Shown here in pieces: positions 2,101-48,269 of a stretch of DNA of 64,000 nt. The stretch's first letter is position 1, and each line of letters opens with the position of its first letter. The translations under genes were made by a program, and so were the position numbers. The notes under the pieces are model-generated. The model did no database searches, was not told where the DNA came from, and worked only from the letters and a program-made list of their open reading frames with translations. This DNA is from a virus: positions 1 to 64,000 of the IMG/VR virus record IMGVR_UViG_3300046534_001250. One strand, written 5' to 3'.

Positions 2101-2128
2101 GAGGCGAGCCCACAAGGCTCGCCTCTTT
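2101..2128 (+). terminator. Intrinsic terminator
   Basis: GAGGCGAGCC-CACAA-GGCTCGCCTC-TTT. Confidence 0.7.
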
Positions 2129-2142
2129 CATTTGGGGGTCCT

Positions 2143-3864
2143 ATGGATCTACCCGTTTTTGTATTCAGCGAAGACGACTGTGTACCGTTTCCAGGCACAC
2201 AGATGCTACTCGATTTACCATTAGAACGAGCCAAGCTACTCAAGTCAGCAAGCTTAAGAGAAGCAGCAACTGGCAAATACTCTGATCAAATCGCAATAGG
2301 CTTCTCTGTAAGAGACCCTCGGGTTGTAATGAGTTCTATTGATGAATACTCAACTAGTGTCCATGAAATTGGAATACTATGCAGAGTAGATGAACGAGAG
2401 GAATGTGACGACTTTGAACTCATTCACCTTACTGGTATAGAGCGCATCTACTTACACGATTTCAGAATAATGGAATCACCTAGTACAGACCAGTCTATCA
2501 TCTTAACAACACATCAGCCTGTAAGCGAAGACTTCCTAGAAGCAGAAGAAGCTTTGATTCACGACATGGAAAATCTCTTCAATCTCATTACTGAGAATCC
2601 AAAGATTTATCCTGCGCTATTAATCGCAGACATTCAAGCAACTCAAAGTTTAATCTCAAAGATGAATAAGCTAGCAGACTATCTGCTAGGAAGTCCGCAA
2701 GAAAGAATTAAGTATCTATTAGAAGATGATAACTATGTTCGATGGGATAGTATAGTTACGCTAACCGTAGCTATGGCTGCTAAGCGACCTAAGATGTCTG
2801 GAAAAAAGAAGAAACCAGTTATAAAGAAGCAGCCAGCAAAAGAAATAACTGTCCCAGAGCAAGCTCTGCAGCTTCCATTAGACGAAGACTCTATGCGCAA
2901 CATTAAGCGCGAAGTAAATAAGTTAGAGAACTTGGCCAAAAGCAGTACAGAGTACGCTATGGTTATGGACTACTTAGATTGGGTTGTATCTGTTCCCTGG
3001 AAAAACACATCCTATAAAGACTTTGATCTGTCTAAGCTAAGAGAAACTTTGGATGAGACTCATTATGGTCTTGACGAAGTCAAAGCCCATATTCTAGAGC
3101 ATCTAGTTGTTGAACGACTACGCGGTGGTAACACCGGTACAGTATTATGCTTTGTCGGTTCGCCCGGTACAGGAAAAACTAGTATTGCTCAGCAGATTGC
3201 AAAAGCAACTCATAGACCCTTGCAACGAATTGCATTGGGCGGGCTAAGCGACGAAGCGGAAATTCGAGGTCACCGCAGAACTTACGTAGCTAGTAAGCCA
3301 GGTAGATTTATCACCGGGCTAAAGACCGCCAAAGCTATGGACCCGCTCTTTCTTCTAGATGAGGTCGATAAGATAGCTAAGTTCAAAGGCGATCCCATGA
3401 CAGCGCTTCTAGAGGTCTTAGACCCAGAGCAAAATCATTCCTTCGTTGACAGATACCTAGAGGTACCAGTGAACTTAAGCCAAGCTATGTTCATTTGTAC
3501 CGCAAACAATAAAGCAGACATTGACCCAGCCTTATTAGATAGAATGGAACTGATTGAGTTCCGAGATTACACTCTCGAAGAAAGAACACACATTACAACC
3601 AACTATCTAATGCCCAAGGTATTAAGCTTCTACAAGCTAGAAAGCTTTAATATTGTTTTCGATCCTACGCTGATTGATGTACTGTGTAAAAACAGTATAC
3701 AGATTAGACAGATTGAAAAAGACATAGCAAAGCTGCTTAGGATGGCTGCAGTCAAAATTCATGTACATGGAAGTGAGAGAGTTATCATTGATAGCGATTT
3801 CTCCGACCAAGTACTCAACAAATATAAAAGTAAAAACAAGCCCATTGGGTTTGGAGGACGATAA
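2143..3864 (+). CDS. Lon-family AAA+ ATPase (Lon N domain + AAA+), no protease domain, C-terminal IGF tail
   Basis: LPVF..VPFPG N-terminus; LDETHYGLDEVKAHILE; Walker A GSPGTGKTS; DEAEIRGHRRTY; Walker B LLDEVDK; LLDRMELI; ends KPIGFGGR with no PKDGPSAG. Confidence 0.92.
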   Translation: MDLPVFVFSEDDCVPFPGTQMLLDLPLERAKLLKSASLREAATGKYSDQIAIGFSVRDPRVVMSSIDEYSTSVHEIGILCRVDEREECDDFELIHLTGIERIYLHDFRIMESPSTDQSIILTTHQPVSEDFLEAEEALIHDMENLFNLITENPKIYPALLIADIQATQSLISKMNKLADYLLGSPQERIKYLLEDDNYVRWDSIVTLTVAMAAKRPKMSGKKKKPVIKKQPAKEITVPEQALQLPLDEDSMRNIKREVNKLENLAKSSTEYAMVMDYLDWVVSVPWKNTSYKDFDLSKLRETLDETHYGLDEVKAHILEHLVVERLRGGNTGTVLCFVGSPGTGKTSIAQQIAKATHRPLQRIALGGLSDEAEIRGHRRTYVASKPGRFITGLKTAKAMDPLFLLDEVDKIAKFKGDPMTALLEVLDPEQNHSFVDRYLEVPVNLSQAMFICTANNKADIDPALLDRMELIEFRDYTLEERTHITTNYLMPKVLSFYKLESFNIVFDPTLIDVLCKNSIQIRQIEKDIAKLLRMAAVKIHVHGSERVIIDSDFSDQVLNKYKSKNKPIGFGGR

Positions 3865-4049
3865 TGATTCAAATCACACTAGACAAGCTACCACAGCGTA
3901 TTTGGTTCGCAAAGAATACTAAGACCGGCAAAGCCCAGATTAGATTCAGTCGAGGCGAAGTACGTGATATTCGAGATGACGCTAAAGCCAAAGGAGAAGC
4001 TATGACCATCGGGTCATATGCTACACCAACGGTTGCGACCCACGGATAG
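3864..4049 (+). CDS. Small hypothetical protein
   Basis: TAATG coupling to the Lon-like gene. Confidence 0.6.
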   Translation: MIQITLDKLPQRIWFAKNTKTGKAQIRFSRGEVRDIRDDAKAKGEAMTIGSYATPTVATHG

Positions 4050-4088
4050 GTCTTGGCCCCTTACAGGGCCTTTGTTTCAAAGGCAGTC

Positions 4089-4313
4089 ATGAATTTATAT
4101 TGTATCAATTTAGACATCTGTGGCTGGTTTGGAGAGTTCGCTGATGACAGTGAATTCTCCTGCCCTGTTTGCCACGCTTTAGCTATTCCGCTAGAGAAAT
4201 TAAGAACGGAAAAAGATGAACTTATTAACCAGTTCGTCTTCGCAGAAGCTGACCTCCCTGGTGAATCTTCACAAAGAGAACCAGAAGATCCAATGGAAGA
4301 TTCTGACTCCTAA
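4089..4313 (+). CDS. Small Zn-ribbon protein with acidic tail
   Basis: C-x5-C...CPVC. Confidence 0.55.
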   Translation: MNLYCINLDICGWFGEFADDSEFSCPVCHALAIPLEKLRTEKDELINQFVFAEADLPGESSQREPEDPMEDSDS

Positions 4314-4773
4314 TACTGAAGTCACACGTTTGCGAGCCTTGTTAGGCGTTTCACAAACTTACTATTCCAAAACAAAATCAGGGTTGTTGACCTCCGCAAA
4401 GATGAGGCAATTGCAAACAGTGGGTATTCACCCCACTAAGACCCACTATCATAAAGGACTGGTGAGTACAGTACTCTATACCAAGGGATTAAACCTTGAT
4501 CTGTCGGCTATTGACGCACACATAAGGACCACTGATAGCGCTGAGATTAACAACCTTCATATTGAAGCTAGCATACTTCAATACTTAGCTTTTAATAAAC
4601 AAGGCGTCTCTACGAAAGAAGCATTAAAAGAAAGAAACAAACGACTATGTGTAATCGCTAAAGTAGCTTTACCTTCCTATGTTTGGGAAGAGCTTAGATC
4701 CACAAAAACGTTTATGAAAAACACAGCCCCTTATGTTGGGCTGTACAAGGCATCACTCAATGAATCTAAATGA
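4216..4773 (+). CDS. Hypothetical protein
   Basis: 185-aa ORF overlapping neighbours in operon fashion. Confidence 0.6.
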   Translation: MNLLTSSSSQKLTSLVNLHKENQKIQWKILTPNTEVTRLRALLGVSQTYYSKTKSGLLTSAKMRQLQTVGIHPTKTHYHKGLVSTVLYTKGLNLDLSAIDAHIRTTDSAEINNLHIEASILQYLAFNKQGVSTKEALKERNKRLCVIAKVALPSYVWEELRSTKTFMKNTAPYVGLYKASLNESK

Positions 4774-7066
4774 CAATTTCAACTTCATCTTGCCATACTC
4801 TATTGGCGGCAATGCTTCAAATCTATCTCTGGAGGCATCTAGAAACTTTGCTACGTATTACTCTGGATATAGAGGATGGTGTGCAGAGAATATATCCATT
4901 GACGAAGGCCCTGACAGATACTCTTACACGTCGCGGTCAAGCCTTACACTAACAAGAAATTGGTTAGTTCCAAGATTTGAAATTGATACTCCAACATGGT
5001 TTGTCAGATGCTCAAGTATTGAAACTTGGTCTAGAAGAGAAAGCGTAATTTCCAACGCTAGTTTGCCTGCAAAACACAATAGAGATTTACCATTCTTGTG
5101 GGTAATTCCAAAGCCTGCTGTAGTTGAAAACGGATATTCATATGCTGACTCAGAAACAATTGCGTACTTAGAAAGCCCACTGTTTTCTATAGCAGTCGCA
5201 GGGGATCCACTAGAAGGATCGCAGGGGCTTAACGGTACTAATAACATTAGGCATCAGCGCCACCAGCATGGCGTCTTGCGCATCTTTTCCAAAGAACAAG
5301 CAAGCGAATTGATTCCAGAGTTAGAGAACAAAGTCCCTACGATTAAAATCACAGGGCTGACCAGAGCTACTCCAGCTAACCCAAAGCCTAGTTATTCACT
5401 CAAGAAGCAAACCAAAGCACAAATCTTATCTGGCCAACGGCTATTCAGTTATATCCAGATAGTTACTGTCGTCGCAAACGACGGAACAGAAACTACAGAA
5501 AACTTGATTTCAGTAGGAATAGTTGGAGATGAAATACTCTTGAACTCCAGATACTCCGCTATATGTCTTCTAGCATTGATTGAATTTATTACATCAACAG
5601 AGTGGATAAATGATATCAAGTACCCGAACCAGGCTATTGTTCGAAACTTTTCTAGCGATCCAGAGTTCTGTCTATATTCTCAACCAACTGTGCCGTTTAA
5701 TATCAGCAATATCCCTGACACCAGCCACACGTCATTAAAAAACAGAGAGGCTAGCGATCTTACAGTCTTGAACTCTAGCGAAAGTGTTACTCGTGCACCG
5801 TTTGCCAGAACTTATTTGGCGGCAGTAAACAAAGTGGAATCTTACAGAGATCAAATTAAATCAATAGAGCAGGAAAGGAAGAGACACGAACAATTGATCC
5901 TTGAACACACCAGTTATATTGCAGAACGTACGCGTAAGATTGATCGGCTACAGAAAGATATCCTGACCGATAAAATACTTGTCAGAGAGGAACGACAAAA
6001 GGCTTTAATTGCTTCAGAAGCAATTCTCAAGCAAACTGATATCGTTGAAGTACTGACTCCGCAACTAGATGGACTTAAGGAGCTATTTAATAGCAAGTTA
6101 GAAAAATATACAGCTGAAGGAAGTTCTGTTCCTGCACTGGATAAGTATTTGTCCAACATGGGAATCAAGATTACTAAGTTGACATTCTTTGATGCTGAAG
6201 GCGAAACCATCAAATCACAAGACGTAGATGTAACCGGCATCCTTATGAATAGGTATGCAATCAAGAGTATGTCTTTTGAAACAACCCGACCTATGAACAT
6301 CAACGTACTGGATACTAACAAGCAAGTAGTTGATACTAGAGTCGGTGGACCATACCGTGTACGTCTCAAGCGATGTGCTGTACAGGAACGCTTTCAAGTA
6401 CGGATTAATGCATTAAGTCATGACAGTATTATAGGCATCGAACCTGTAACAAACACCGGCATCTTTTACGCAAAAGCCCATCCTCATACTGGCTGTTCTG
6501 CCTTGAAAAGAGATGATTATGTATCAGGGCTTGAAAGTCTTGTAAGCCAAGATATTGAACCATGTCTAGGCGAAGCCGAAGCAGCACTAGCTACTGCTAG
6601 CAAAACAAATAACATCAAAATGATTTTATTTGCAATGCTATCTTGGCTCAAGAATGCATACAAAGACGATCAATGGGGCAGGACCGCAGCCTGGTTTCCT
6701 AAGCCACGTTACATCGCTAATATGCTATTAGGAGAGGAGCTTGCTGCAGCAAAAATAGCTGTTTCTAACAATGGAATAAGCCTAATAGCTTATGCCAAAA
6801 TTGCATATTCAACAGACTACAGTATAACTTGGAGTCATGATGGAGCAATTGTGTGCGAAGAAGGCATAAGCTACGGTAAAGACCAATACAAGACTCTCTT
6901 ATTTTTCAAGAATAAAGAAGAGGCAAATTACTACATGCGTACACGATCTCAAGATTGGTTATCGTATTATCATAAGTACCATACTACAGATTGGTGCTTA
7001 GAAATTCTTAATGATTTTCCAGCCGAAACAGAAACACAAGAACAAATAGAAGAAATAAATGCATAA
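4760..7066 (+). CDS. Large multidomain protein with coiled coil and prokaryotic E2 (UBC-like) domain; possible C-terminal WGR-like domain
   Basis: AHPH (6479) ... PCLG (6563) ... WLKNAYKDDQWG; upstream of JAB, E1 and Ubl genes. Confidence 0.65.
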   Translation: MNLNDNFNFILPYSIGGNASNLSLEASRNFATYYSGYRGWCAENISIDEGPDRYSYTSRSSLTLTRNWLVPRFEIDTPTWFVRCSSIETWSRRESVISNASLPAKHNRDLPFLWVIPKPAVVENGYSYADSETIAYLESPLFSIAVAGDPLEGSQGLNGTNNIRHQRHQHGVLRIFSKEQASELIPELENKVPTIKITGLTRATPANPKPSYSLKKQTKAQILSGQRLFSYIQIVTVVANDGTETTENLISVGIVGDEILLNSRYSAICLLALIEFITSTEWINDIKYPNQAIVRNFSSDPEFCLYSQPTVPFNISNIPDTSHTSLKNREASDLTVLNSSESVTRAPFARTYLAAVNKVESYRDQIKSIEQERKRHEQLILEHTSYIAERTRKIDRLQKDILTDKILVREERQKALIASEAILKQTDIVEVLTPQLDGLKELFNSKLEKYTAEGSSVPALDKYLSNMGIKITKLTFFDAEGETIKSQDVDVTGILMNRYAIKSMSFETTRPMNINVLDTNKQVVDTRVGGPYRVRLKRCAVQERFQVRINALSHDSIIGIEPVTNTGIFYAKAHPHTGCSALKRDDYVSGLESLVSQDIEPCLGEAEAALATASKTNNIKMILFAMLSWLKNAYKDDQWGRTAAWFPKPRYIANMLLGEELAAAKIAVSNNGISLIAYAKIAYSTDYSITWSHDGAIVCEEGISYGKDQYKTLLFFKNKEEANYYMRTRSQDWLSYYHKYHTTDWCLEILNDFPAETETQEQIEEINA

Positions 7067-8225
7067 AGTAATTGGAACACAAACGATCGTACCTGTTGTA
7101 GGATCTAAAGCTGCTTTAATGATGGACGATACATTGTATCGTCAAACAAAGTATCTAGTTGATTCTCTCAAGACTGACGAAGTCCAGTGGTGGCACCGCG
7201 TCGAGAAAGTAACAGTTGAAGGAGCCACGTATTACATGCTGAAGGATTTGATTATCCCTCATCAAGAGGTACATGCTGCCACTACAGAAGTCGATGGGCA
7301 AAACCAGTACAAGGCTTACCAAGAAATCAAATCTCGCTTTACCCAAGAAGGCACAACAGACACAGAGTCAATGAACAAGTTCATTGGTGGCCTTACTTGC
7401 TGGAGCCACAGTCATGGAAACATGACCGTGGGGCCTTCGCCGCAAGACGAAGCACAGTTTAAGCTGTTCATTGAACAGCAGAGCAAAGATGACTTTGATC
7501 AGATCTTCCTTATGATGATCTGGAACAAGAAAGACGAAATCTATGCTCTCATTTATGATCCTGAAACATGCTTTATGATTGAGAATATTCCTCTGATTGT
7601 ATACTATCCAAATATCGAAACCGACTATATTGACGACGCTGTCGCCAATAAGGTCACAAAAAAAAAGCAAACGTATACACCAGTCAGTCAAACAACCTAC
7701 AGTGGGAAGAATGCCAAGGCTGGGAAGAGTACTACGAACAGCAAAGTCAACAATATGGCTCGGCGTATTCCTAGTGTGGGCGGACTTACGGGCAAGATTC
7801 GGACTCGCGCCTTTCAGCTGGGACAAATTGTCACTCAGTTCAGCAACCGACCTTCCGAACTGACAGAGTTAATGGAGATCTTCACGACTCATCTTGGCCA
7901 TAATGCCAATGCAATTCGTGCTCTCCGAATGCTTATCCACGGTGACTACAAGAACAAGGACCAGTTGAAAGCTTTTGAAAACTGGGACGAATCAGATTAC
8001 GAATTTGAAGTGATGGCGCTAGACAACCTTCTTAACACCGAATGGATTCCTAGCAATGGAATTATTGTACGCTCTCTAGATGTTGTGTCGTTTCTAACGA
8101 AACGACCTTCTCCCATGATTGGTTATGTTATTGACAACTTTTATGAATACTACGATGCTGTATACGAAGAAGCAGCAAAAGCAGTTCCTCAGCTAGAGGA
8201 TGGCGATCATGTCCGCAGTCTATAG
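7059..8225 (+). CDS. JAB/MPN+ (JAMM) metallopeptidase, deubiquitinase-like
   Basis: E(VQW)...HSH-GNMTVGP-S-PQ-D matches E..HxHx7SxxD. Confidence 0.88.
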   Translation: MHKVIGTQTIVPVVGSKAALMMDDTLYRQTKYLVDSLKTDEVQWWHRVEKVTVEGATYYMLKDLIIPHQEVHAATTEVDGQNQYKAYQEIKSRFTQEGTTDTESMNKFIGGLTCWSHSHGNMTVGPSPQDEAQFKLFIEQQSKDDFDQIFLMMIWNKKDEIYALIYDPETCFMIENIPLIVYYPNIETDYIDDAVANKVTKKKQTYTPVSQTTYSGKNAKAGKSTTNSKVNNMARRIPSVGGLTGKIRTRAFQLGQIVTQFSNRPSELTELMEIFTTHLGHNANAIRALRMLIHGDYKNKDQLKAFENWDESDYEFEVMALDNLLNTEWIPSNGIIVRSLDVVSFLTKRPSPMIGYVIDNFYEYYDAVYEEAAKAVPQLEDGDHVRSL

Positions 8226-8904
8226 ACCTACCTTCCTCAGGGCTGCCGCATGGGTAGGCCCGGCTATGTTGACCGACGTTGTTACTATCGTTGGTTGCGG
8301 AGCGACAGGATCATACATCGCAGTTGCTTTAGCCAAGATGGGATTCACCCAGTTCTGTATCTACGATTCAGATTTAGTAGAGCCACACAACTTGCCAAAC
8401 CAAGAGTATGACTCTCGGCATGTTGGAATGCTCAAGGTTGACGCTCTTGAGCTTAAATTGATGGAGTTTAATCCAGATATTACAGTCACAAAAAACAACG
8501 AGTTCTTCACCTCAGATACAGTCATTTCAGATTTCGGCCCAGTCATTTTGACTACAGATACCAATAGTAGTCGTGTCGAAATCATGAATGTATGTAAAGG
8601 AAATTTGATGGTTGACCACGTATTTGAAACCAGACTTGGGTTTCATCACGGCGAAGTTGCCATCGTTGATAATCATGATTCAGAATCCGTTGAAAAATGG
8701 CTGAATACAGTAAAGCCAGATGATGAAATACCAGATGGGCCTTGCAATGAGCGTACATGTACTACTCTAGTAATGATGATTGCCGCGTTTACCGTGCATC
8801 AAATCTGTGAGAAATACAGTGCAGCTACCAAAGATGAAAGATGGATATATAACAAACGAACTCTGATTCAAATGAATCCGAGTCTTACCGTACTCAGTAT
8901 GTAA
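8200..8904 (+). CDS. ThiF/E1-like ubiquitin-like activating enzyme
   Basis: IVGCGATGS; YDSDLVEPHNLPNQ; KV..L; TTD; TRLG; C-terminal Cys residues. Confidence 0.92.
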   Translation: MAIMSAVYRPTFLRAAAWVGPAMLTDVVTIVGCGATGSYIAVALAKMGFTQFCIYDSDLVEPHNLPNQEYDSRHVGMLKVDALELKLMEFNPDITVTKNNEFFTSDTVISDFGPVILTTDTNSSRVEIMNVCKGNLMVDHVFETRLGFHHGEVAIVDNHDSESVEKWLNTVKPDDEIPDGPCNERTCTTLVMMIAAFTVHQICEKYSAATKDERWIYNKRTLIQMNPSLTVLSM

Positions 8905-8913
8905 GGAGAAACA

Positions 8914-9129
8914 ATGGTTGTTTCACTAGTAATTTTCCCAGGCCGTGGCCTTGATGGACACGTCGTTCTTGAAGCAGGCGCAAGTTTGCAAGACCTCGTA
9001 AACAAGCGTGACCTTTCCGGTCGTAGCCTCTGCGTCAATGGCGAAGAAATTCCAAGCTCTGCTTGGGAATCTACCATTCTTGAAAGCGGCTGGGAAGTCG
9101 CTGCTCTGAGCCCTTCTAAGGGCAACTAA
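8914..9129 (+). CDS. Ubiquitin-like beta-grasp protein (ThiS/MoaD-like) ending KGN
   Basis: VNGEEIP..W.ST.LESG.EV pattern, penultimate Gly, strong AAGGAG RBS. Confidence 0.82.
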   Translation: MVVSLVIFPGRGLDGHVVLEAGASLQDLVNKRDLSGRSLCVNGEEIPSSAWESTILESGWEVAALSPSKGN

Positions 9130-9131
9130 TA

Positions 9132-9162
9132 GTACGAGCCCCTTCGGGGGCTCTACTTTTTT
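9132..9162 (+). terminator. Intrinsic terminator closing the Ubl operon
   Basis: GAGCCCC-TTCG-GGGGCTC then T tract. Confidence 0.85.
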
Positions 9163-47263: not shown

Positions 47264-47929
47264 ATGACAGAAGATGAAACCGTAGTCGAAGAGCCAGTTG
47301 AAGAGGAAGGCGTTGAAGGCTTTGATCTCGCAACCTTAATAGGCGGAAGCTCACAAGAAGTATGGAGACCAGACACGGTTGCTTTCTTTGGCTCAGCCAA
47401 TAGGAGTATCTTGATGTCAGGAGAGGTAGACCAGTCAATGGCAGACGCCATGATCGGGCAACTCCTTCAGCTAGACGAAGAATCTAACGACCCAATCGTA
47501 GTCTATATCAATACTCCAGGTGGAGAATTAGATAACGCACTTGCTATCTACGATACGATGCAGACTGTCGCTAGTCCAATCTTTACGATTGCAGTCGGAT
47601 CATGCATGAGCGCAGGGCTATTGCTCCTTCAAGGTGGAGACGTAAGATCGTCTATGCCGAGAACAAGGCTCATGTATCATGAGCCAATGGCTGGTGCCAA
47701 CGCCTTCAATAGCGAAGGTGCTGATGCTTTCGCAGCAAACTACGCTTGGGCCAAGCAGCAAATGAAAGAGATCCTGACAGAAGGAACGAACATCACCGAG
47801 AAAGTGTGGAAAGACACTTTCGCAGGGAAGACTGCAATGTTCCTTTCGGCTCAAGAAGCTCTTGAGCTAGATCTATTAGATGTCATTATGACGTACGCCG
47901 ATAAGGCAGTATTGCCAGATGGCAAGTAG
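47264..47929 (+). CDS. clpP: ClpP-family (S14) peptidase
   Basis: QLLQLD..S.DPI.VYINTPGG; AIYDTMQ; GSCMSAG (Ser); MYHEP (His); FLSAQEA. Confidence 0.9.
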   Translation: MTEDETVVEEPVEEEGVEGFDLATLIGGSSQEVWRPDTVAFFGSANRSILMSGEVDQSMADAMIGQLLQLDEESNDPIVVYINTPGGELDNALAIYDTMQTVASPIFTIAVGSCMSAGLLLLQGGDVRSSMPRTRLMYHEPMAGANAFNSEGADAFAANYAWAKQQMKEILTEGTNITEKVWKDTFAGKTAMFLSAQEALELDLLDVIMTYADKAVLPDGK

Positions 47930-48269
47930 AGGCCGAGGCGCCCGACAAAAAGGATTCAACTTTGAGCGTGCTGTAGCCAAGCTTCTAACAGGCTTAACAG
48001 GTTTTGAATGGAAGCGTGGGCTAGGGCAAACTCGTGGCGGTGGAGCAGAGCACGCAGACGTTATTTCAGAACACATGGAAGATATTCATGTAGAATGTAA
48101 GCGTCACAAATCAGTATCAATTAAAAAAGCTATGGAACAAGCAGTCGGAGACCGTGATCCAGGAGATTTAGCAGTTGTAATCACTAAGGATGATCGTAAA
48201 GACATCTTAGTGACTATGCTCTGGGACGACTGGGCACTAATGTTCGACGTTTACACGGCCAACAGGTAG
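47919..48269 (+). CDS. Hjc-like Holliday junction resolvase
   Basis: RQKG..FER.VA; ADV; HVECK. Confidence 0.82.
   Translation: MASRGRGARQKGFNFERAVAKLLTGLTGFEWKRGLGQTRGGGAEHADVISEHMEDIHVECKRHKSVSIKKAMEQAVGDRDPGDLAVVITKDDRKDILVTMLWDDWALMFDVYTANR

What the first reader, a model, noticed from the sequence alone, without database searches (positions are those of the whole stretch)
2143..9129. Candidate phage tag-and-degrade system: Ubl conjugation operon + protease-less Lon unfoldase + ClpP
Seen: between terminators at 2101 and 9132 lie a Lon AAA+ ending in IGF, three small genes (one Zn ribbon), E2-like, JAB, E1 and Ubl genes; a ClpP sits at 47264. A weak hairpin near 4055-4072 may divide the unit. 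Established: Ubl tagging coupled to an AAA+ unfoldase and barrel peptidase is the logic of the proteasome, and characterised bacterial E1-E2-JAB-Ubl systems (e.g. Bil) are host antiphage defences. Inference: this phage encodes its own Ubl-dependent degradation route, possibly to remove host defence proteins or time its own programme. I do not know of a described equivalent; the coupling is a hypothesis.
Basis: partly seen in the sequence, partly recalled or inferred. Interest (0 to 1): 0.92.

Follow-up and report, generated by a model that had tools for sequence, protein, structure and literature searches.

The report
Phage ubiquitin-like tagging cassette with Lon motor
A large uncultured phage carries its own complete ubiquitin-style protein-tagging kit (tag, activating enzyme, carrier enzyme, trimming protease), preceded by a Lon motor that lacks its protease half; the tagging kit is well supported, but its proposed coupling to that motor and to ClpP is not.

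Summary
Between two strong hairpin terminators (2101-2125, 9136-9153) lie a Lon-type N-domain plus AAA+ motor with no protease domain, ending in IGF. After it come three small genes, a 768-aa protein, a JAMM/JAB peptidase, a minimal ThiF-type E1 and a 71-aa ThiS-like Ubl ending K-G-N. A ClpP gene sits at 47264.

The 768-aa protein has no Pfam or sequence match. Its C-terminal domain folds confidently (pLDDT 90), and 49 of its 50 nearest solved chains are E2/UEV/RWD folds. Shorter homologues carry HPH-x7-C-L-G-D, which matches the canonical E2 spacing as I recall it.

The E2-JAB-E1-Ubl set recurs in over 150 viral contigs. Close relatives have polyubiquitin-like genes of 2-4 repeats, each ending K-G-N. 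I read this as a phage-owned Ubl conjugation system.

The coupling to Lon and ClpP is not supported:
- Twelve complete phage genomes have the E1-JAB core without Lon or ClpP.
- Collinear sister genomes lack only Lon and keep ClpP.

Against that, every Lon copy found sits just upstream of the cassette and ends in (I/V)GF, and every Lon-bearing complete genome has ClpP.

This scan has noted the same family on other DNA. I found no paper describing it.

The parts
2101..2125 (+). Strong hairpin terminator closing the upstream genes; 5' boundary of the unit
   Evidence: 10-11 bp stem with 8 G-C pairs, followed by a T-rich tail. Sequence read.
2143..3864 (+). Lon-like AAA+ ATPase, 573 aa: LonA N-domain plus AAA+ module, no S16 protease domain
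   Evidence: PF00004 E 6.6e-21; TIGR00763 profile positions 260-572 of 795; residues 1-217 match LON_substr_bdg models at TM 0.68-0.72. GxPGTGKT, LLDE(V/I)DK and the pore-loop GHR(R/K)TY are conserved across relatives.
3844..3852 (+). IGF tripeptide, residues 568-570, three residues from the C-terminus
   Evidence: all 15 distinct homologues end in (I/V)GF plus 0-6 residues. G and F are invariant, although the preceding ~20 residues vary in sequence and length.
3864..4049 (+). 61-aa ORF of unknown function; its start overlaps the Lon stop codon
   Evidence: One homologue, in L002.
4055..4070 (+). Weak hairpin (5 bp, all G-C) in the short gap before the zinc-ribbon gene
4053..4313 (+). Small zinc-ribbon protein (CX5C...CX2C); likely start is the ATG at 4089
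   Evidence: Homologues at the same position in L002, L004 and L005/L006.
4216..4773 (+). 185-aa ORF of unknown function; it overlaps both neighbours, so its true start may lie further downstream
   Evidence: No family match.
4760..7066 (+). 768-aa E2-type protein: variable N-terminal region, ~105-residue coiled-coil helix (aa 347-452), C-terminal UBC-like domain
6122..6739 (+). UBC-like catalytic domain of the E2 (aa 455-660). Invariant H574-P-H576 lies at 6479-6487 and invariant C602 at 6563-6565.
   Evidence: AF2 pLDDT 90.1, pTM 0.85; 49 of the top 50 solved chains are E2/UEV/RWD folds (Ube2K 6jb6_A Z 4.5, rmsd 3.9, 122 aa; bacterial Bil E2 8tyz_C Z 3.3); invariant residues, and HPH-x7-C-LGD in the short homologues.
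7059..8225 (+). JAB/JAMM metallopeptidase, 388 aa: N-terminal ~210-aa catalytic domain plus a variable C-terminal region
   Evidence: E41, H117, S118, H119, S127 and D130 are invariant in 25 sequences; 845 representative clusters at E <= 1e-3.
8200..8904 (+). Minimal ThiF-type E1, 234 aa, without a rhodanese domain
   Evidence: PF00899 E 2.2e-23; invariant GxGAxGS, D56, K79, D120, R125, C182, C187 and C203.
8914..9129 (+). Ubl, 71 aa, ThiS-like beta-grasp pattern, ending K-G-N
   Evidence: ThiS E 0.0058; homologues end KGN, or KG plus up to 8 residues. Relatives have tandem repeats.
9136..9153 (+). Strong hairpin terminator; 3' boundary of the unit
47264..47929 (+). ClpP-family peptidase, 221 aa, flanked by an HNH endonuclease and a RusA resolvase
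   Evidence: The catalytic Ser (MSAG) and His (YHEP) are present. The position where I recall the triad Asp to lie is Ala here.

Best explanation
Genes 4760-9129 encode a phage-owned ubiquitin-like protein-conjugation system.

Proposed mechanism (steps inferred, none assayed here):
1. The JAB peptidase trims the Ubl precursor after its conserved Gly. In this phage it removes the terminal Asn. In relatives it would cut the repeats of polyUbl genes apart.
2. The minimal ThiF-type E1 adenylates that Gly.
3. The Ubl passes to the invariant Cys602 of the UBC-like domain of the 768-aa E2.
4. The E2 transfers it to target lysines. The E2's long variable N-terminal region and coiled coil probably choose the target, acting like a built-in E3.
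5. The JAB could also remove the tag again.

The targets are unknown; they could be phage or host proteins.

The Lon-type motor upstream is an optional accessory limited to one phage clade. It looks like an active ATP-driven unfoldase. Its conserved C-terminal (I/V)GF most plausibly docks it onto a separate partner, and the phage ClpP is the leading candidate (about one in three). Whether it acts on Ubl-tagged proteins is open (about one in seven).
For: Shown by tools:
- JAMM motif invariant in 25 family members.
- E1 adenylation motifs invariant.
- E2 domain model at pLDDT 90, with 49 of the 50 nearest solved chains being UBC/UEV/RWD folds, including a bacterial Bil E2.
- Invariant His-Pro-His, Cys and D-x-W-G in 19 homologues.
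- Short homologues beside JAB and E1 in distant phages show HPH-x7-C-L-G-D. This is the canonical E2 HPN-x7-C-L spacing as I recall it.
- The Ubl ends K-G-N across the sampled loci of all three groups. Relatives have 2-4 head-to-tail repeats, each ending K-G-N.
- Type II Bil Ubls likewise have a conserved Gly followed by up to nine residues (10.1101/2023.09.26.559546).
- The gene order E2-JAB-E1-Ubl is kept in 10 close loci and 10 further ones. The E1-JAB core occurs in 152 viral stretches. The E2-JAB-E1 set occurs in about 50 of 80 MAG loci (E2 in 53, JAB in 56).
- Overlapping start and stop codons link E2, JAB and E1.

For Lon as an accessory:
- It has a LonA N-domain fold and intact ATPase and pore-loop motifs, and ends at lon profile position 572 of 795.
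- (I/V)GF is conserved in 15 distinct homologues.
- It lies directly upstream of the cassette in all 16 loci that carry it.
- ClpP is present in this genome, in partial G002, and in all 3 complete Lon-bearing genomes.
- It is the only unfoldase-type AAA+ gene found in this record and G003; G005 has one further short AAA match of 306 aa.
Against: - No conjugation has been observed.
- The E2 assignment rests on fold and motif only. Z-scores are low (3.1-4.5). Pfam, a PDB sequence profile and Foldseek gave nothing significant.
- In this phage, ~25 residues are inserted between HPH and the Cys.
- The E1 has Asn where ThiF/MoeB enzymes have the Arg of NLxRQ, as I recall the motif.
- The Ubl ends in one Gly plus Asn, not Gly-Gly.

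Against a Lon link:
- Lon is absent from collinear sister genomes that keep both the cassette and ClpP.
- ClpP occurs without Lon (G008, G010, G011, G016).
- The cassette core occurs without either in 12 complete genomes.
- The ClpP lacks the Asp of the triad as I place it.
- The (I/V)GF could descend from the first strand of the lost protease domain (xVGxVxGLA in LonA, as I recall it) rather than from a ClpX-like loop.
Confidence: 0.55

Rival explanations
1. This is a virus-encoded tag-and-degrade pathway: Ubl-tagged proteins are recognised by the Lon N-domain, unfolded by the AAA+ ring and fed into the phage ClpP, which is docked through the IGF tail.
For: - Lon lies directly upstream of the cassette in all 16 loci that carry it, inside one terminator-bounded unit.
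- The (I/V)GF tail is conserved.
- Every Lon-bearing complete genome has ClpP.
- No other unfoldase-type AAA+ gene was found in this record or in G003.
- There is precedent in SAMP/proteasome and Pup/Mpa systems (PMC4895103 for the archaeal case).
Against: - The cassette core works without Lon and ClpP in 12 complete genomes.
- Collinear sisters G008 and G010 lost or never had Lon, yet keep the cassette and ClpP.
- The adjacency can be explained by one ancestral insertion.
- There is no evidence of Ubl recognition by the Lon N-domain.
- ClpP lies 38 kb away, in the DNA-metabolism block.
Confidence: 0.14
2. The Lon-like protein works without ClpP. It could be a stand-alone remodelling chaperone for phage assemblies, or a decoy that mixes into or competes with host Lon to protect phage proteins. 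The terminal (I/V)GF would be a retained piece of the Lon linker and first protease strand, used for ring packing or for another partner.
For: - The protein ends exactly where the Lon protease domain begins. As I recall, LonA sequences have xVGxVxGLA at that point.
- Protease-less Lon N+AAA clusters of ~590-635 aa exist in bacteria (rows 3 and 5).
- Phage ClpP occurs without Lon and lacks the triad Asp as I place it.
- Phage interference with host Lon has precedent (T4 PinA, from my own knowledge).
Against: - G and F are invariant in a tail whose surroundings drift freely, which suggests a docking peg.
- The basic-residue-plus-IGFG context resembles the ClpX IGF loop as I recall it.
- Lon is never found in a ClpP-less genome among those searched.
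Confidence: 0.28
3. The E1, Ubl and JAB form a sulfur-carrier system of the ThiS/ThiF, CysO/Mec or QbsE/QbsD type. It would make a thiocarboxylate for a thio-modified metabolite or nucleoside, not protein conjugates.
For: - The Ubl's only family hit is ThiS (E 0.0058), and the E1's best hits are ThiF/MoeB models.
- JAB-trimmed sulfur carriers are known (Iyer et al. 2006, PMC1779556).
Against: - A conserved UBC-fold protein with invariant Cys always accompanies E1 and JAB in the close relatives.
- PolyUbl precursors occur in relatives.
- No rhodanese domain was detected on the E1, and no family match of any kind on the other cassette genes.
- The Ubl ends in a single Gly, not Gly-Gly.
Confidence: 0.04

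Closest known systems
Bil systems (BilABCD types I and II; operon types 6c/6d of Iyer, Burroughs and Aravind 2006, PMC1779556; Chambers et al., 10.1101/2023.09.26.559546)
   Same: - Four separate genes for a Ubl, an E2, a JAB peptidase and an E1.
- The Ubl has a conserved Gly followed by a few removable residues.
- Some members have multi-domain Ubls.
- The Bil E2 structure (8tyz_C) is among the fold matches.
   Different: - This system is encoded by lytic-type large phages, not by bacterial defence islands.
- The E2 has His-Pro-His before the Cys, as classical eukaryotic E2s do. Bil E2s lack the upstream His and use a downstream one.
- The E2 carries a 450-residue N-terminal extension with a coiled coil.
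- The E1 is a 234-aa single adenylation domain without the inactive adenylation domain or the helical Cys insertion of BilD.
- No Bil profile matched.
Operon type 6e of Iyer et al. 2006 (multi-Ubl, JAB-E1 fusion, E2/RWD-like domain, Zn-finger protein)
   Same: One to three tandem ~70-75-aa ThiS/MoaD-like Ubl repeats, and a small Cys-rich zinc protein in the neighbourhood.
   Different: In type 6e the JAB is fused to the E1 and the E2-like domain lacks the Cys. Here JAB and E1 are separate genes and the E2 Cys is invariant.
LonA protease (endopeptidase La, TIGR00763)
   Same: N-terminal substrate-binding domain fold and AAA+ module. The AAA+ module is 42-46% identical to phage- and bacterium-encoded Lon.
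   Different: The whole S16 Ser-Lys protease domain is missing. The chain ends in a conserved (I/V)GF tail.
ClpX/ClpA/ClpC unfoldases docking on ClpP through IGF/IGL/VGF loops (e.g. PMC7112951, PMC7112952)
   Same: A hexameric AAA+ translocase type carrying an (I/V)GF tripeptide, in genomes that encode a separate ClpP.
   Different: - The AAA+ lineage is different (Lon clade).
- The tripeptide lies at the extreme C-terminus, not in an internal loop.
- Docking is untested.
Archaeal SAMP-UbaA-JAMM system with proteasome/Cdc48 (PMC4895103)
   Same: A ThiS/MoaD-like tag, a minimal E1 and a JAMM peptidase, possibly linked to an AAA+ unfoldase and a barrel peptidase.
   Different: SAMPylation needs no E2. 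Here an E2 is conserved, and the unfoldase link is optional rather than general.

Membership tests
Ubl conjugation system (E1-E2-DUB-Ubl) | Small beta-grasp modifier with a conserved C-terminal Gly that can be exposed | tested here: met
   ThiS-like pattern, with ThiS E 0.0058. K-G-N or K-G-x(1-8) ends in all homologues found, and tandem repeats each ending K-G-N. The fold itself was not modelled.
Ubl conjugation system (E1-E2-DUB-Ubl) | E1 with a ThiF/MoeB adenylation domain | tested here: met
   PF00899 E 2.2e-23. Nucleotide-binding and Mg-binding residues are invariant. The Arg of NLxRQ, as I recall the motif, is Asn here.
Ubl conjugation system (E1-E2-DUB-Ubl) | E2 with the UBC fold and a catalytic Cys preceded by His (HPN-x7-C in classical E2s) | tested here: met
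   49 of the top 50 fold matches are UBC/UEV/RWD (Z 3.1-4.5). HPH and Cys are invariant. Short homologues show HPH-x7-C spacing. In this phage the spacing is 25 residues. No sequence-profile support.
Ubl conjugation system (E1-E2-DUB-Ubl) | JAMM/JAB metallopeptidase motif E...HxHx7Sx2D | tested here: met
   E41, H117, H119, S127 and D130 are invariant in 25 sequences. No Pfam JAB model matched.
Ubl conjugation system (E1-E2-DUB-Ubl) | Isopeptide conjugates formed on target proteins | not testable with these tools
   Needs biochemistry or proteomics.
Bil (BilABCD) | Sequence membership of the E2, JAB and Ubl in Bil families | tested here: inconclusive
   PADLOC matched only the Rossmann part of the E1, to CBASS Cap2 'E1-E2' models. 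The E2, JAB and Ubl had no hits. I did not check whether that library carries Bil models. The Bil E2 is a weak fold match (Z 3.3).
LonA protease | LonA N-terminal domain plus Lon-clade AAA+ module | tested here: met
LonA protease | C-terminal S16 protease domain with the Ser-Lys dyad | tested here: not met
   The match ends at profile position 572 of 795. The ORF stops 26 residues later. The downstream small ORFs have no family match of any kind.
ClpP-docking unfoldase (ClpX/ClpA/ClpC type) | Conserved (I/L/V)G(F/L) tripeptide available for the ClpP pockets | tested here: met
   (I/V)GF is present in 15 of 15 homologues, but at the C-terminal tail rather than in an internal loop.
ClpP-docking unfoldase (ClpX/ClpA/ClpC type) | Physical complex with ClpP and stimulation of degradation | not testable with these tools
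   Needs reconstitution. Co-occurrence is one-sided: Lon implies ClpP, but ClpP does not imply Lon.
ClpP (S14 peptidase) | S14 fold with the Ser-His-Asp triad | tested here: inconclusive
   PF00574 E 7e-36. Ser and His are present. The position where I recall the Asp to lie is Ala, Ser or Asn in all 9 phage homologues. The gene is not in a head-gene block: it lies between HNH and RusA genes.
ThiS/ThiF sulfur-carrier pair | Gly-Gly carrier, sulfurtransferase partner, no E2 | tested here: not met
   The Ubl has a single Gly followed by Asn. No rhodanese was detected. A conserved E2 is present.

The most novel reading that the evidence does not exclude
A virus-encoded counterpart of the ubiquitin-proteasome pathway. 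The phage tags chosen proteins with its own Ubl. A Lon-derived unfoldase that swapped its built-in protease for an IGF peg recognises the tag and threads the protein into the phage's ClpP barrel. This would be a third, independent invention of tag-unfold-degrade, alongside the Ub/SAMP-proteasome and Pup-Mpa systems. It would also be the first Lon-clade partner of ClpP.
Probability: 0.13. Interest if true: 0.95.

Novelty: new variant of a known kind. Interest (0 to 1): 0.74.

Why it matters
- Origin of the system. E1-E2-DUB-Ubl systems in prokaryotes have so far been studied as bacterial anti-phage defences (Bil, CBASS Cap2/Cap3). Here the virus itself owns a complete, widely distributed version. 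Its E2 active-site signature looks closer to that of eukaryotic E2s than the Bil E2's does, and its tag genes are polyubiquitin-like.
- Use of the system. It opens the question of what phages tag: host defence proteins, their own virion parts, or timing factors. It also offers a compact four-gene system for biochemistry.
- The Lon motor. Separately, the Lon motor with an IGF tail is a natural experiment in how AAA+ motors exchange peptidase partners.

Tried and rejected
- Complex prediction with three copies of phage ClpP (aa 33-221) plus the last 80 residues of Lon gave no verdict (score 0.00, controls not run). This is no evidence either way.
Contexts were obtained through the search for related loci instead.
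- DNA and protein searches of GenBank phages found no close relative of the cassette. Only canonical Lon genes and crAss-type ThiF genes turned up.
- Single-protein pattern scans of viral contigs with the E2 or JAB found nothing. Alignment-based scans worked.
- The full-length E2 model was poor (pLDDT 55), and its fold search was swamped by coiled coils. Atlas and PDB sequence searches of the E2 gave nothing.
- Foldseek against the PDB on the good domain model gave no E <= 0.001. BFVD returned only uncharacterised phage proteins.
- Pfam at E <= 10 on ten E2 homologues, and a PDB profile search with alignment A8, found no E2 family.
- A search seeded on the Lon N-domain found only one extra homologue.
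- I considered that ClpP might be the prohead protease. I rejected this on position (between HNH and RusA) and on its better scores to ClpP models than to the head-maturation model.
- Host assignment from MAG labels was rejected. The closest MAG contigs carry Saccharibacteria, Gammaproteobacteria, archaeal and Bacteriovoracaceae labels and look like mis-binned phage contigs.

Full report
**Setting.** The window is the first 64 kb of an 82-kb IMG/VR virus record that CheckV rates about 62% complete. It carries rIIA, PhoH, DNA polymerase, primase-helicase, ligase and thymidylate synthase. It is therefore a large lytic-type tailed phage. No cultured relative was found in GenBank phages.

**Observation.** Genes 2143-9129 lie on the + strand between the two strongest + strand terminator-like hairpins of the first 12 kb, at 2101-2125 and 9136-9153. 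A weak 5-bp hairpin sits at 4055-4070. Start and stop codons overlap at Lon/61-aa ORF, E2/JAB and JAB/E1, and 9 bases separate E1 from the Ubl.

**Lon-like gene.**
- The 573-aa product matches the equivalog model for endopeptidase La only over profile positions 260-572 of 795 (E 1.6e-111). It then stops, so the S16 protease domain is absent.
- Residues 1-217 superpose on LonA N-domain models at TM 0.68-0.72.
- Walker A, Walker B and the GHR(R/K)TY pore loop are conserved in relatives.
- Fifteen distinct homologues, including a split copy and one database protein, all end in (I/V)GF followed by 0-6 residues. G and F are invariant, while the preceding ~20 residues vary in sequence and length. 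The tail is therefore under selection.
- Two origins are possible. It could be convergence on the ClpX-type IGF peg. It could also be retention of the first residues of the lost protease domain, where LonA has xVGxVxGLA as I recall it. The sequence alone cannot separate them.

**The 768-aa protein.**
- It has no Pfam, PHROG, NCBIfam, PADLOC, Atlas or PDB-sequence match.
- Related loci and a profile search gave 19 homologues of 700-1150 aa. They share only a C-terminal ~190-residue core, with invariant P, GP, H-P-H, C-x-G, D-x-W-G and F-P.
- The full-length model was poor except for a ~105-residue helix (aa 347-452) and this core. Modelled alone, the core reached pLDDT 90.1 and pTM 0.85.
- Foldseek found nothing significant. 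An exhaustive alignment against 48,161 solved chains gave a top-50 list in which 49 entries are ubiquitin-conjugating enzymes or their UEV/RWD relatives. Examples are Ube2K (Z 4.5, rmsd 3.9, 122 residues), UbcH7, E2S, UbcH5, Ubc13, Ubc9 and the bacterial Bil E2 8tyz_C (Z 3.3). The Z values are low, but the list is too uniform to be chance.
- More distant phage loci have 280-420-aa homologues next to JAB and E1. These read HPH-x7-C-L-G-D, followed about 27 residues later by [DN]-P-x-D-x-x-G. I recall the classical E2 signature as HPN-x7-C-L...PNPxDP, which is the same layout.
- The protein in this window has about 25 residues inserted between HPH and the Cys.
- I conclude it is a catalytic E2 with a long N-terminal targeting region. 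My confidence in that is about 0.85.

**JAB, E1 and Ubl.**
- JAB: the 388-aa protein has the JAMM signature, invariant in 25 aligned relatives. Its family has 845 representative clusters at 50% identity.
- E1: a 234-aa single ThiF domain with no rhodanese domain.
- Ubl: the 71-aa protein has the ThiS pattern (...VNGE.IP...W..T.L..G..V...) and ends K-G-N.
- All sampled loci of the three groups of relatives carry a small ORF ending K-G-N. One ends K-G plus eight residues.
- Group B relatives encode proteins of 2-4 head-to-tail repeats, each ending G-S-V-K-G-N, plus single copies. That is the layout of polyubiquitin genes and calls for a processing peptidase.
- Type II Bil Ubls also have a conserved Gly followed by up to nine residues.

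**Distribution.** An E1 profile scan of IMG/VR found 152 related stretches, of which 80 were kept.

| Group | Loci | Content |
|---|---|---|
| A | L012-L021 | Lon, E2, JAB, E1 and Ubl, in the order seen here |
| B | L022-L031 | E2, JAB, E1 and polyUbl; Lon only in L022, L024 and L031 |
| C | L032-L091 | E1 with an adjacent JAB in 56 of 60 loci, often a short E2, no Lon |

In MAG collections the E2-JAB-E1 set occurs in about 50 of 80 loci (E2 in 53, JAB in 56). Some lie on Mb-size bacterial contigs. Lon occurs only in the three loci that are evidently mis-binned group A/B phage contigs.

**Testing the coupling.** I searched 28 whole records of at least 90 kb.
- Lon-like genes occur only in G003, G005 and G006, all 100% complete and all with ClpP. 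This genome and partial G002 also carry both.
- ClpP also occurs in G007, G008, G009, G010, G011 and G016, which lack Lon.
- Twelve complete group C genomes have neither Lon nor ClpP.
- Groups A and B are collinear from thymidylate synthase to PhoH and beyond. In L025, L027, L028 and L030 the Lon gene alone is missing from its slot.
- The Lon-less, ClpP-bearing complete genomes G008 and G010 have no ClpX/ClpA-type ATPase. The phage ClpP therefore does not depend on a phage-encoded motor.
- In this record and in G003 the Lon-like gene is the only unfoldase-type AAA+ gene found. G005 has one further short AAA match of 306 aa.
- In short, Lon implies the cassette next door and a ClpP in the genome, but neither the cassette nor ClpP implies Lon. 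This fits an optional accessory acquired once in the A/B lineage. It gives no independent support for a functional link.

**ClpP.** The gene at 47264 scores best against ClpP models. It lies between an HNH endonuclease and a RusA resolvase, not among head genes. Ser and His of the triad are present. The position where I recall the Asp to lie is Ala, Ser or Asn in all nine phage homologues.

**Literature and earlier notes.**
- Iyer et al. 2006 (PMC1779556) described bacterial E1/E2/JAB/Ubl operon types 6a-6e. For phages they described only the tail-assembly Ubl/JAB pair.
- Chambers et al. treat Bil operons as bacterial defence.
- Four full-text searches found no paper on phage-encoded E1-E2-JAB-Ubl cassettes or on a protease-less Lon with ClpP.
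- This scan has noted the same family on other DNA. One earlier follow-up also judged the IGF tail conserved and the Ubl link unshown. Another reported polyUbl relatives. My own tests agree with both.

**Verdict.** The phage Ubl conjugation cassette is well supported and undescribed in the literature I could search. The tag-and-degrade coupling remains a hypothesis that comparative genomics weakens but does not exclude.

Noticed in passing
L022:11821-13050, L030:11158-11907, L023:5290-5940, L031:11284-11715: Relatives encode polyubiquitin-like genes: 2-4 head-to-tail Ubl repeats of ~70 aa, each ending G-S-V-K-G-N with 1-5 linker residues, alongside single-copy Ubl genes.
   Followed up: yes
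L094/L095 (G006:77744-78871 and 79780-80367): In a 192-kb complete relative, the Lon-like gene is split into two ORFs about 900 bases apart, exactly within the AAA+ module. The second piece still ends IGFRK. An intron or a homing-endonuclease insertion seems likely.
   Followed up: no
window:47264-47929 and alignment A6: All nine phage ClpP homologues keep the Ser and His, but have Ala, Ser or Asn where I recall the triad Asp to lie. They also carry an acidic N-terminal extension.
   Followed up: partly
L136, L138, L169 (MAG contigs of 3.2-4.5 Mb): The same E2-JAB-E1 set also sits on Mb-size bacterial contigs (Bacteroidetes, Pseudohongiella, Myxococcota). The family is therefore not confined to free phage genomes. 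Whether these are prophages or cellular systems was not resolved.
   Followed up: no
L108:10486-11088, L110:10536-10838, L131:15342-16007: Three distant E2-JAB-E1 loci without Lon have a ClpP-family gene 2-7 kb from the E1. This is a possible second, independent ClpP-cassette neighbourhood, or these may be prohead proteases.
   Followed up: no
crAss001 MH675552.1:81502-82083 and other crAss-like phages: crAss-like Bacteroides phages carry a distant ThiF-type gene (23-27% identity), annotated 'thiamine biosynthesis protein'.
   Followed up: no
window:46841-47254 and 47919-48269: An HNH endonuclease gene abuts the ClpP start, and a RusA resolvase gene overlaps its end.
   Followed up: no
The protein-atlas search rows 3 and 5: Clusters of bacterial proteins of ~590-635 aa have a Lon N-domain plus AAA+ module and list no Lon_C domain among their common Pfam families (Bacteroidota, Pseudomonadota). 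Protease-less Lon motors may be more widespread than this phage clade.
   Followed up: no
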